Below, in pieces: positions 48,373 through 49,561 of a DNA stretch of 64,000 nucleotides. This DNA comes from Candidatus Binatia bacterium (GTDB taxonomy: Bacteria > Desulfobacterota > Binatia > UBA1149 > CAITLU01). The notes under the pieces were generated by a model. The model saw only the letters and a program-made list of their open reading frames with translations, did not search any database and was not told where the DNA came from. Location of the stretch: the NCBI GenBank assembly GCA_047611725.1, contig JBLFWR010000001.1, positions 4,100-68,099 of the forward strand, read 5' to 3'. How positions within the stretch are numbered: position 1 is the first letter of the stretch; the number at the start of each line of letters is the position of its first letter. The position numbers and the translations under genes were made by a program.

Positions 48373-48675
48373 ATGGCTGGTCTATTCTTGGCACCATCGG
48401 CACAGGCCGAGGCTGAGTATCGATATTGCTCACGCGATTCTCATGGGCGGGGCGCGGGGGCTCCCGTATCGACATGCGGCAGCGGACTCGAACAAGATGG
48501 CGCCCTTTGCTATCCGGGCTGCGCCGGCGGCTACGATGGAGTCGGCCCTGTTTGCTGGCAGCAGTGCCCGAGCGGTTACATCGACGACGGCGTAACTTGT
48601 CGCCTCCCCGAACACATCTTTGCCAAGAGCAGCTACAGCCGAGGAGCGGGAGAGCTCCTCGGCTGTAGCTGCTAG
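48373..48675 (+). CDS. fragment: short signal-like N-terminus plus one cysteine-rich module (DGALCYPGCAGGYDGVGPVCWQQCPSGY); likely 5' piece of a disrupted gene
   Basis: Module is homologous to the one starting the next ORF in a different frame. ORF terminates inside a 20-bp-stem palindrome. Confidence 0.35.
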   Translation: MAGLFLAPSAQAEAEYRYCSRDSHGRGAGAPVSTCGSGLEQDGALCYPGCAGGYDGVGPVCWQQCPSGYIDDGVTCRLPEHIFAKSSYSRGAGELLGCSC

Positions 48676-49561
48676 CCAAGAGTTGGACGGCGGCCTTTGC
48701 TATCCAAACTGCGGGGCCAACTATGACGGCGTTGGCCCGGTGTGTTGGGAAGACTGCCCGGCAGACTACCCCGCCGATTGCGGAGTCCGATGCGCGACCA
48801 CATCGGGCGACTGCGCAGCAGGCACGCTGAGCCCCGTACCTGGGTCGAGCTGTACCGAACCGCCATCGGGCACTGCGTGCAACGGCCCCTCGCAGCTATG
48901 TGACAGGCGATTCGATCACGTCACATTCGGCATGACCCACAACGCCCACGGCTGTTGCGGCGTCTCGCGGTTCACGCGGCTTTGCGACTATCTCATCACG
49001 CTCGGTCGCTTCCTCGATGCCAATCCCAGCGAAACGCTGACCCTGCTCATCGAGCATACCGATGGACTAAGCGTTCAGGACGTTGCCGGAGTTTTTCAAA
49101 GTACCGGTCTCGATAGCCGAACCTACGTAAAGCCCGCGTGCGCGGCGTGGCCTACGCTCTCCCAACTTGGCGGACGAATCCTTGCCTTCTCTCAAGACGG
49201 TTCGTTCGGCGGAGTGATCCAACGCCTTTGGAGTCAAGGCTTCGACAATCCCTACTCATACGACATCGTAGAAGGTTACGCGCTGCCGCGGACGTGCGAG
49301 GTCGGGCGCGGCACTCAGAGCGGTTTATTCCTGATTAATCATTTCATCACACCTCCATCATCGGGAATCACCGGCTCGTACTCGAACGGGGATCGCCTGC
49401 TTGACCAAGTCGATGCCTGCGAAGCAGCCGAGTACAAGACGCCGAATTTCATCGCGCTGGACTACTATGAGCAGGGCTCGTTCGACGGCGGCTCTTTTGC
49501 CAACTACGTCGCTTCTATCAACGCGAGACCTCATTTCGGACGCGCCTGGGACCAAGGATGA
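48620..49561 (+). CDS. secreted PI-PLC X-domain-like (PLC-like phosphodiesterase, TIM-barrel) protein with N-terminal Cys-rich module; start uncertain (TTG in ORF track)
   Basis: FLDANPSETLTLLIEHTD, GRILAFSQDG, LFLINHFITP, NFIALDYYEQG align by eye with Bacillus PI-PLC blocks (FLKDNPSETIIMSLK, GKIVLLKRY, LYINFTS, VGWVIQDYIN). HVTFGMTHNAH corresponds to the catalytic His region. Confidence 0.5.
   Translation: MPRAATAEERESSSAVAASQELDGGLCYPNCGANYDGVGPVCWEDCPADYPADCGVRCATTSGDCAAGTLSPVPGSSCTEPPSGTACNGPSQLCDRRFDHVTFGMTHNAHGCCGVSRFTRLCDYLITLGRFLDANPSETLTLLIEHTDGLSVQDVAGVFQSTGLDSRTYVKPACAAWPTLSQLGGRILAFSQDGSFGGVIQRLWSQGFDNPYSYDIVEGYALPRTCEVGRGTQSGLFLINHFITPPSSGITGSYSNGDRLLDQVDACEAAEYKTPNFIALDYYEQGSFDGGSFANYVASINARPHFGRAWDQG
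48628..48673. repeat. perfect inverted repeat: 20-bp arms AGCAGCTACAGCCGAGGAGC / GCTCCTCGGCTGTAGCTGCT around 6-nt loop GGGAGA, flanked by direct 8-mers GCCAAGAG (48622-48629 and 48675-48682)
   Basis: Read directly. Sits exactly at the frame break between two homologous Cys-rich coding modules. Confidence 0.85.

What the first reader, a model, noticed from the sequence alone, without database searches (positions are those of the whole stretch)
48373..48700. Perfect 20-bp-stem palindrome sitting exactly at a frame break between two homologous cysteine-rich coding modules
Module 1 (frame 1) is DGALCYPGCAGGYDGVGPVCWQQCPSGYIDDGVTC. Module 2 (frame 2) is DGGLCYPNCGANYDGVGPVCWEDCPADYPADCGVRC. They are clear tandem homologs but sit in different frames. 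Between them lies a perfect inverted repeat (48628-48673) flanked by direct 8-mers GCCAAGAG. Removing about 52 nt (48628-48679) joins the modules in frame (...IFAK-ELDGGLCYPNC...). That pattern fits a small palindromic insertion or hairpin-mediated duplication that split one ancestral gene. Alternatively it is a deliberate structured element, or an assembly artifact at a hairpin.
Basis: seen in the sequence. Interest (0 to 1): 0.7.

Follow-up and report, generated by a model that had tools for sequence, protein, structure and literature searches.

The report
Hairpin-linked frameshift in a decaying gene
The perfect 20-bp hairpin is real, but it is not an inserted element: it lies inside the gene's own coding sequence, and one extra base at its edge breaks a gene that also carries at least one other disabling lesion, so this is most likely an ordinary mutational scar.

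Summary
There is a perfect 20+20 nt inverted repeat (48628-48647 / 48654-48673, 6-nt loop), flanking GCCAAGAG 8-mers, and a frame 1 to frame 2 break between two homologous Cys-rich modules. The sequence is 100% identical in three other assemblies from at least two sequencing runs, so it is not an assembler artefact.

The "palindromic insertion" reading fails. Homologues show a ~55-aa repeat unit (...IFAK-SYGRGAG-xPLxC-xxxxE-DGALCYP.C..GY.GVGPVCW...). A profile built from other proteins runs straight through both arms: the left arm encodes SSYSRGA and the right arm encodes LLGCS. Removing one base at 48667-48671 gives a full-length unit match of 116-117 bits. Removing 46 or 52 nt deletes profile positions 32-46 and scores 78-81 bits. 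Removing 53 nt (the target-site-duplication model) leaves the gene out of frame.

The gene once encoded a signal peptide, two Cys-rich units and a PI-PLC-X-like domain. It also lacks 47 residues of the catalytic core and has no canonical start before its signal-peptide-like stretch, so it is a pseudogene.

The best explanation is a hairpin-associated (quasipalindrome / template-switch) mutation that made the palindrome perfect with a net gain of one base. The ancestral state could not be recovered, because no close orthologue was found. Interest is low.

The parts
48313..48408 (+). Signal-peptide-like stretch in frame 1 (...RTNGPFIRQIAAAAFTFTIMAGLFLAPSAQA). There is no ATG/GTG/TTG upstream of its hydrophobic core. 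The only canonical start, ATG 48373, lies in the middle of that core.
   Evidence: The translation shows the frame open from 48271. It aligns with the signal peptide of the intact homologue P0007, MRMRVLAFSMTIFTITLAGAAGRVFA. Loss of the start codon is inferred, not shown; CTG 48313 or ATC 48334 could serve as rare starts.
48409..48603 (+). Cys-rich repeat unit 1 (frame 1)
   Evidence: It matches the repeat-unit HMM built from other proteins at 60 bits and aligns with the homologues.
48604..48672 (+). First half of Cys-rich repeat unit 2 (frame 1): LPEHIFAKSSYSRGAGELLGCSC. It contains both arms of the palindrome.
   Evidence: HMM positions 1-46 are matched in frame 1 up to the last codon before the TAG. 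The alignment to P0013 and P0007 is gap-free here.
48628..48673 (.). Perfect palindrome: arms 48628-48647 and 48654-48673, loop 48648-48653
   Evidence: Other units of the family show only 3-9 of 20 complementary positions at the same axis.
48667..48676 (+). Zone that contains the net +1 nt (the frame 1 to frame 2 handover), at the outer end of the right arm. TAG stop at 48673-48675.
   Evidence: In the single-base removal scan, the full-length HMM match peaks at 116-117 bits for 48667-48671. Removals at 48672-48675 also leave no stop codon.
48622..48629 (+). Left GCCAAGAG 8-mer. It is the native codons of the conserved F-A-K-S motif.
   Evidence: The same GCCAAGAGC encodes FAKS in the DNA of the distant homologue P0007 (L099).
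48675..48682 (+). Right GCCAAGAG 8-mer. It is the native codons (a)GC-CAA-GAG = S-Q-E in frame 2, where E is the conserved Glu before DG.
   Evidence: Such flanking 8-mers occur at 0.24% of arbitrary 46-nt segments of this window. I treat this as an unexplained coincidence.
48674..48793 (+). Second half of Cys-rich repeat unit 2 (frame 2): SQELDGGLCYPNCGANYDGVGPVCWEDCPADYPADCGVRC
   Evidence: HMM positions 43-71 are matched in frame 2; see also the alignment.
48794..49561 (+). Linker plus a PI-PLC-X / Rv2075c-like catalytic domain (frame 2). A 47-residue in-frame deletion has its junction at about 48944-48952 (THNAH|GCCG).
   Evidence: The alignment shows that P0013 and P0007 carry HAVLGAG...IWLC here. 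Precomputed Pfam hits PF26146 and PF26178 are recorded on the 209-aa remnant. PF00388 hits P0013 and P0007 over the region that includes the deleted stretch, but not the repaired window protein.

Best explanation
The locus is the remnant of one secreted protein gene: a signal peptide, two ~55-aa six-cysteine repeat units and a PI-PLC-X-like phosphodiesterase domain. The 46-nt palindrome is part of the native coding sequence of repeat unit 2. In this lineage the stretch became a perfect 20-bp hairpin and carries one nucleotide too many at the outer end of its right arm. That extra base shifts the reading frame and produces a TAG.

The most likely mechanism is hairpin-associated replication error, that is, quasipalindrome or template-switch mutation in the sense of Ripley. 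The nascent strand folds back, copies the opposite arm, and returns. This makes the arms exactly complementary and adds or removes bases that differ between them.

The gene is non-functional. It also has a 47-residue deletion in the catalytic core and no canonical start codon. The hairpin is therefore a mutational scar, not a working element.

Shown: the sequence is native coding sequence, the break is a 1-nt frameshift, the deletion exists, and the sequence recurs in independent assemblies. Inferred: the template-switch origin, the number and direction of events, and the loss of the start codon.
For: (1) The repeat-unit consensus comes from six other proteins. An HMM of 11 of their units matches frame 1 through both arms (HMM 1-46) and then frame 2 (HMM 43-71), with no insertion.
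(2) Removing one base at 48667-48671 gives a single 1-71 match of 116-117 bits. Removing 46 or 52 nt gives split matches of 78-81 bits, and removing 53 nt gives 51 bits.
(3) The alignment to the intact homologues P0013 and P0007 is gap-free across the palindrome and shows a 47-aa deletion in the PI-PLC-X core. PF00388 hits the homologues there but not the window protein.
(4) No canonical start precedes the signal-peptide-like stretch.
(5) Other units of the family, including unit 1 of this gene and the DNA of P0007, show only 3-9 of 20 complementary positions at the same axis, so the perfect palindrome is specific to this lineage.
(6) A perfect 20-bp stem is not attainable by chance, at about 6e-5 expected per 5 Mb. 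Template switching is the documented process that makes imperfect inverted repeats perfect and causes frameshifts (PMC7202029; PMC5941160; PMC8794818; Ripley 1982 as cited there).
(7) The best-scoring single-base repairs all remove a base from the outer right arm, meaning the extra base is one that increases complementarity.
(8) The sequence is identical in three other assemblies from two runs plus a JGI assembly. NCBI annotates only the 209-aa C-terminal remnant.
Against: No close orthologue was found. The nearest is P0013, a 241-residue partial protein 64% identical over the aligned region, with no DNA available. P0007 is 34% identical by BLASTP over 92% of the query (44% in the alignment). 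So the imperfect ancestral state that defines a quasipalindrome correction was not observed.

Both arms still encode consensus-like residues (Y, R, G, A on the left; L, C on the right). A single whole-arm copy would achieve that only by a roughly 1% coincidence (my estimate from codon usage). A stepwise route needs several events.

The exact flanking 8-mer direct repeat (p about 0.002) is not explained by this model.

The preference for placing the extra base inside the arm rather than just outside it is only 4-7 bits.
Confidence: 0.62

Rival explanations
1. A small palindromic mobile element (MITE- or REP-like) inserted into the gene and duplicated the 8-bp target GCCAAGAG.
For: The exact 8-mers flank the palindrome. 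That arrangement is rare for arbitrary segments, at 0.24%.
Against: Excision of the element plus one repeat (53 nt) leaves the gene out of frame and removes profile positions 32-46. The supposed insert encodes SSYSRGAG-ELLGC, which matches the family motif SYGRGAG-xPLxC. There is no second copy within 3 mismatches in 64 kb. The left 8-mer is the native FAKS codons, and the same nonamer is present in the DNA of P0007.
Confidence: 0.02
2. An assembly or sequencing artefact at a hairpin: either the whole palindrome, or only the extra base as a systematic indel error next to a strong inverted repeat.
For: Hairpins are known trouble spots. One Logan contig (SRR28416802) starts only 67 nt upstream of the palindrome. 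Reads could not be inspected.
Against: The sequence across the site is 100% identical in two Logan assemblies from different runs and in a JGI assembly. Contigs continue normally on both sides. There is no homopolymer at the site. The gene carries a further lesion that cannot be blamed on this site.
Confidence: 0.06
3. A selected structured element within coding sequence: a 'coding palindrome' that acts as a recoding signal (programmed frameshift), an mRNA stability or attenuation element, or a protein-binding hairpin.
For: The stem is perfect and very stable, at -50.6 kcal/mol as RNA. Both arms keep consensus residues, as in the coding palindromes of Nematomorpha mitochondria (PMC6649704). 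The frame break lies exactly at the foot of the stem.
Against: There is no slippery site. The hairpin lies upstream of and over the shift site, not downstream of it. UGC-UAG offers no +1 re-pairing, and there is no properly spaced SD-like stimulator (read from the sequence). There is no T-run for a terminator and no Rfam family. The downstream catalytic domain has lost 47 core residues, so recoding would yield a crippled protein. Equivalent hairpins are absent from other family members.
Confidence: 0.06
4. Two genuinely separate genes with independent starts (ORF1 48373-48675 and ORF2 48620-49561).
For: Both ORFs exist with ATG and TTG starts.
Against: ORF1 starts inside a signal-peptide core and ends in the middle of a repeat unit. 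ORF2's first 18 residues are the out-of-frame reading of the palindrome, it has no signal peptide for a disulfide-rich domain, and I saw no SD-like sequence upstream of its TTG start (read). The HMM hands over between frames within one unit. Annotators called neither ORF. The intact homologue P0007 is a single 499-aa protein.
Confidence: 0.02

Closest known systems
Quasipalindrome-associated template-switch mutations (Ripley 1982 model; E. coli thyA hotspot and lacZ QP5/QP6 reporters, PMC7202029; evolutionary correction of inverted repeats in Proteobacteria, PMC5941160)
   Same: The end product is a perfect inverted repeat within a gene. A small indel at the arm changes the reading frame. The arm length (about 18-20 bp) and the short loop are in the range of the experimental reporters.
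   Different: The ancestral imperfect state is not available here, so the event is inferred from the product only. The stem would have needed many positions to be corrected, or a whole-arm copy, whereas the classic cases correct one to a few positions.
Template-switch mutations that create hairpins de novo in one event (Loytynoja and Goldman 2017, PMC5453318; Monttinen and Loytynoja 2022, PMC8794818)
   Same: A reverse-complement copy of an adjacent stretch replaces a segment of similar length and gives a perfect stem at once. The length mismatch between the replaced and copied segments gives the indel.
   Different: Those cases were found in RNA genes, microRNAs and non-coding DNA, with ancestral reconstruction. 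Here the event lies in a protein-coding repeat of a bacterial MAG, and the result is a pseudogene.
Coding palindromes in Nematomorpha mitochondrial genes (PMC6649704)
   Same: A perfect inverted repeat is embedded in coding sequence, and both arms encode conserved residues.
   Different: Those genes remain intact and functional, and the palindromes are numerous and long (up to 284 bp). Here there is one 20-bp example associated with a frameshift in a degraded gene.
REP / MITE-type palindromic elements
   Same: A short GC-rich hairpin flanked by a direct repeat.
   Different: This one is single-copy in the window, lies within a gene, is homologous to the host protein family, and excision does not restore the gene.
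Family of the host gene: bacterial PI-PLC-X / Rv2075c-like proteins (PF26146, PF26178) with N-terminal Cys-rich repeats, e.g. P0007 (499 aa)
   Same: The same architecture and the same order of parts. The window protein is 64% identical to P0013 and 44% to P0007 in the alignment (34% to P0007 by BLASTP).
   Different: The window copy is frameshifted, lacks 47 core residues, and lacks a canonical start.

Membership tests
Quasipalindrome / template-switch mutation product | [quoted passage not shown] | tested here: met
   20/20 complementary positions with a 6-nt loop.
Quasipalindrome / template-switch mutation product | An ancestral or sister sequence shows the imperfect state, and all differences are explained by copying the other arm. 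| tested here: inconclusive
   No close orthologue was found in genome contigs, metagenome contigs or the protein database, and no DNA is available for P0013. Distant units are only 3-9/20 complementary.
Quasipalindrome / template-switch mutation product | The indel or frameshift is confined to the repeat arms, and the extra base increases complementarity. | tested here: met
   The best single-base repairs are at 48667-48671, inside the outer right arm. The margin over positions just outside the arm is only 4-7 bits.
MITE / REP-like palindromic element | Multiple dispersed copies. | tested here: not met
   Only the two arms themselves match within 3 mismatches in 64 kb. The rest of the genome was not available.
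MITE / REP-like palindromic element | Removal of the element plus one target-site copy restores the interrupted sequence. | tested here: not met
   Removing 53 nt leaves the gene out of frame, and the unit HMM match drops to 51 bits.
Programmed ribosomal frameshift site | A slippery sequence with a correctly placed stimulator: a downstream structure for -1, or an upstream SD plus a poor stop context for +1. | tested here: not met
   The sequence AGC UGC UAG C has no slippery motif. The hairpin lies upstream of and over the site.
Programmed ribosomal frameshift site | Conservation of the frame break in orthologues. | not testable with these tools
   No close orthologues were found. Distant homologues P0007 and P0013 are read in a single frame.
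Intrinsic terminator | A GC-rich stem followed by a T-run. | tested here: not met
   No terminator-like site at 48628-48690 on either strand.
Cys-rich ~55-aa repeat family (no curated model) | A full-length match to the unit profile, including six Cys and the SYGRGAG and GVGPVCW motifs. | tested here: met
   Unit 1 scores 60 bits. Unit 2 scores 116-117 bits after a 1-nt repair. No Pfam or NCBIfam model hits it.
PI-PLC-X-like phosphodiesterase (PF00388 / PF26146 / PF26178) | An intact catalytic core, comprising the segment between the HN(A/S) motif and the LCH motif. | tested here: not met
   47 residues are missing relative to P0013 and P0007. There is no PF00388 hit in the repaired protein, while the homologues are hit. 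The remnant still carries the precomputed PF26146 and PF26178 hits.

The most novel reading that the evidence does not exclude
The hairpin is a selection-maintained 'coding palindrome' in a bacterial gene. It would be a DNA or RNA structure kept perfect while both arms keep encoding a conserved protein motif. It could act as a reversible on/off switch through hairpin-templated gain and loss of one base, or as a recoding signal for a secreted Cys-rich protein.
Probability: 0.04. Interest if true: 0.6.

Novelty: new member of a known kind. Interest (0 to 1): 0.2.

Why it matters
This is mainly a correction. The palindrome should not be catalogued as a mobile or REP-like element, and the two ORFs should be annotated as one pseudogene.

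It is also a clean natural example of a perfect hairpin that arose inside coding sequence and coincides with a frameshift. It fits the view that template switching creates and perfects stems in a single step or a few steps, but one case without an ancestral state adds little.

A by-product may be more useful. The host gene belongs to a widespread six-cysteine ~55-aa repeat family that has no Pfam or NCBIfam model.

Tried and rejected
- Insertion or target-site-duplication model: rejected by the profile scoring.
- Dispersed repeat family: nothing in the window.
- Orthologue search for the ancestral state: genome contigs gave only Cys-repeat relatives. Metagenome contigs gave PI-PLC-X relatives at 33% identity or less over full-length matches. 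A protein search with the C-terminal domain returned only the window's own 209-aa fragment. P0013 has no contig on record.
- Intrinsic palindromy of the motif: rejected, with other units at 3-9/20.
- Codon-usage footprint of arm conversion: uninformative. CGA and GGA are the least used codons of their sets, but at 17-18% they are not rare.
- Known RNA family: only sub-threshold microRNA-like hairpin hits.
- Terminator or promoter at the site: none.
- Exact look-ups of ORF1 and ORF2 as called proteins: not on record, consistent with annotators not calling them.

Full report
**1. Observation**

The region reads ...TTT GCCAAGAG CAGCTACAGCCGAGGAGC GGGAGA GCTCCTCGGCTGTAGCTGCT A GCCAAGAG TTGGAC.... 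The repeat finder confirms a 20-nt, 100% complementary inverted repeat (48628-48647 / 48654-48673) with six bases between the arms. It also confirms two GCCAAGAG 8-mers at 48622 and 48675.

Frame 1 (ATG 48373) runs into TAG at 48673-48675. The second module continues in frame 2, inside an ORF that formally starts at TTG 48620. Deleting 52 nt, or just the 46-nt palindrome, joins the frames; deleting 53 nt does not.

The stem is far beyond chance. About 7e-7 such stems are expected per 64 kb of this composition and about 6e-5 per 5 Mb. The folding z-score is about -7 both as DNA (-29.9 kcal/mol) and as RNA (-50.6 kcal/mol). It is the only strong hairpin in the window; the next best are 82% complementary or worse. 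The 20-mer has no other copy within three mismatches.

**2. The sequence is not an assembler artefact**

An exact-protein look-up of the neighbouring ABC-2 permease and of the 209-aa C-terminal remnant found other contigs. These are Logan assemblies of SRR28416755 (35.6 kb) and SRR28416802 (8.6 kb), and a 1.45-kb contig of JGI metagenome 3300054698. All three are 100% identical to the window over 16,162, 4,001 and 1,451 nt respectively, and each includes the palindrome, the stop and the downstream deletion.

Six window proteins looked up by exact sequence, including the permease, SCO1 and the 209-aa remnant, each carry two NCBI accessions (MFT4569xxx and MFT5039xxx, labelled 'Hyphomicrobiaceae bacterium'). 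The annotators called only the 209-aa remnant (48932-49561) and nothing over the two modules. Reads themselves could not be inspected.

**3. What the palindrome sits in**

A search with the 1-nt-repaired protein found 513 relatives. Their sequences show a tandem unit of about 55 residues:

...C-R-x(4)-I-F-A-K-x-S-Y-G-R-G-A-G-x-P-L-x-C-x(4)-E-x-D-G-A-L-C-Y-P-x-C-x(2)-G-Y-x-G-V-G-P-V-C-W-x(2)-C-P-x-G-Y-x-D-D-G-x(2)-C-R.

The window reads HIFAK-SSYSRGAG-ELLGCS in frame 1 and SQELDGGLCYPNC... in frame 2. The left arm therefore encodes S-S-Y-S-R-G-A and the right arm encodes L-L-G-C-S. Both are part of the native unit.

The two architecture-sharing homologues align without a gap across the site. 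They are P0013, a 241-residue partial protein 64% identical over the aligned region, and P0007, an intact 499-aa protein (34% identical by BLASTP over 92% of the query; 44% in the alignment).

I built an HMM from 11 units of six other proteins. In frame 1 it matches positions 1-46 right up to the stop codon, and in frame 2 it takes over at positions 43-71.

I then removed each single base in turn between 48640 and 48691. A single full-length match (positions 1-71) peaks at 116-117 bits for removals at 48667-48671, and removals up to 48675 leave no stop codon. Removing 46 or 52 nt gives split matches (1-31 and 47/49-71) totalling 78-81 bits. Removing 53 nt, as the target-site-duplication model requires, gives 51 bits and the wrong frame.

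The lesion is therefore a net gain of one base at the outer end of the right arm, not an insertion of about 50 nt.

**4. The gene is degraded in other ways**

- **Catalytic domain.** Relative to P0013 and P0007, the catalytic domain lacks 47 residues. The window has THNAH|GCCGVSRF where P0013 has THNAH-AVLGAG...EIWLCH-GGCGISRF. Pfam PI-PLC-X (PF00388) hits P0013 and P0007 over the region containing that stretch, but does not hit the repaired window protein. The remnant still carries precomputed PF26146 and PF26178 hits. From general knowledge of PI-PLC-X barrels, this segment holds the conserved Arg/Asp strand and the strand leading to the second catalytic His. Loss of activity is inferred, not shown.
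- **Start codon.** The frame-1 stretch upstream of ATG 48373 is open from 48271 and reads ...RTNGPFIRQIAAAAFTFTI-M-AGLFLAPSAQA. This aligns with the P0007 signal peptide, but it contains no ATG, GTG or TTG. The only canonical start lies in the middle of the hydrophobic core. Loss of the start codon is inferred; a rare CTG or ATC start cannot be excluded.
- **Overall.** Taken together, the locus is best read as one pseudogene.

**5. Is the motif intrinsically palindromic?**

No. At the same axis, 13 units from other genomes show 3-9 complementary positions out of 20, where chance gives 5. The two units of P0007's DNA show 7 and 8, and unit 1 of this gene shows 3. The perfect stem is specific to this unit in this lineage.

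**6. Mechanism**

A perfect 20-bp stem cannot be reached by independent point mutations in a sequence that is otherwise so well preserved. All cysteines are intact, and the aligned region is 64% identical to the nearest relative.

The documented process that makes inverted repeats perfect, often with frameshifts, is template switching at quasipalindromes. This covers the Ripley 1982 model and the E. coli reporters (PMC7202029), evolutionary correction of inverted repeats in Proteobacteria (PMC5941160), and creation of perfect stems in a single event (PMC8794818, PMC5453318). The extra base lies where it increases complementarity, which is what that model predicts, although the score margin over positions just outside the arm is small.

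The number and direction of events cannot be decided:
- A whole-arm copy from left to right would have to reproduce the conserved Leu and Cys by a coincidence of roughly 1%. That is my estimate from the need for CGA (17% of Arg codons) and for an A-initial codon after TAC.
- A copy from right to left could not have reproduced Y-R-G-A by chance.
- Stepwise or mosaic correction is also possible.
- Alternatively, a coding palindrome existed first, and the hairpin later provoked a +1 slip at its foot.

All of these versions are hairpin-associated mutagenesis.

**7. The flanking 8-mers**

The left copy is the codons of the conserved F-A-K-S, and the same GCCAAGAGC is present in P0007's DNA. The right copy is (a)GC-CAA-GAG, which encodes S-Q-E in frame 2, with the conserved Glu. 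Both are therefore native.

Their exact identity at both feet of the stem occurs at only 0.24% of arbitrary 46-nt segments of this window, and I cannot explain it mechanistically. From general knowledge (not looked up here), a palindrome bracketed by direct repeats is a classic deletion-prone arrangement. Such a 53-nt deletion would not repair the gene.

**8. Alternatives**

- **Mobile element:** rejected (sections 3 and 5).
- **Artefact:** unlikely (section 2), although the single extra base can only be fully secured from reads.
- **Recoding or regulatory hairpin:** there is no slippery site, the stem is on the wrong side of the shift site, there is no terminator T-run, no Rfam family, and the downstream domain is crippled.
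- **Two independent genes:** contradicted by the within-unit handover between frames and by the single-gene architecture of P0007.

**9. Limits**

No close orthologue could be found. Genome contigs gave only Cys-repeat relatives. Metagenome contigs gave relatives at 33% identity or less over full-length matches. A second protein search returned only the window's own fragment, and P0013 has no contig on record. The ancestral state, and therefore the template-switch origin, remains an inference.

**10. Verdict**

The insertion interpretation is wrong, and the 'split ancestral gene' part is right. This is a hairpin-linked +1 frameshift inside the native coding sequence of a decaying gene for a secreted Cys-rich PI-PLC-X-like protein. 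It is a new instance of a known kind of mutation and of low general interest.

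Noticed in passing
window 48409-48793; proteins P0001-P0120: The modules belong to a widespread ~55-aa six-cysteine repeat (SYGRGAG...DGALCYP.C..GY.GVGPVCW..CP.GY.DDG..CR). It was found in 513 proteins, fused to PAN, C1A peptidase, lipase, metallophosphoesterase, F5/8-type-C and PI-PLC-X domains. No Pfam or NCBIfam model matches it.
   Followed up: partly
window 48944-48952: There is an in-frame 47-residue deletion in the PI-PLC-X-like core relative to P0013 and P0007. 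Both ends fall at His codons (NAH|... LCH|G), which suggests slippage between short direct repeats.
   Followed up: partly
window 48271-48408: A signal-peptide-like stretch has no canonical start codon upstream of its hydrophobic core. An AGAGG lies about 9 nt before CTG 48313, so a rare start is conceivable.
   Followed up: partly
window 49656-50945 (+): This 429-aa ORF carries the cysteine-rich acidic repeat TIGR02232 (myxo_disulf_rpt) and has no evident signal peptide. Gene callers instead called two antisense ORFs (74 and 193 aa) and a 142-aa C-terminal piece. It may be mis-annotated or may be another degraded gene.
   Followed up: no
L003 (SRR28416802 contig), start = window 48561: One independent assembly breaks 67 nt upstream of the palindrome, inside repeat unit 1. 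The cause is unknown; it may be repeat- or coverage-related.
   Followed up: no
window 22621-22668: The second-best hairpin in the window has 22-nt arms, 82% complementarity and a 4-nt loop. Its right arm contains a TTTT run, so it may be a terminator.
   Followed up: no
whole window: Housekeeping proteins (PheT, ThrRS and others) fall in 90%-identity clusters of one or two members. Among named members, the only label is 'Hyphomicrobiaceae bacterium' MAGs, so the lineage is poorly sampled. This is why no orthologue was found.
   Followed up: no
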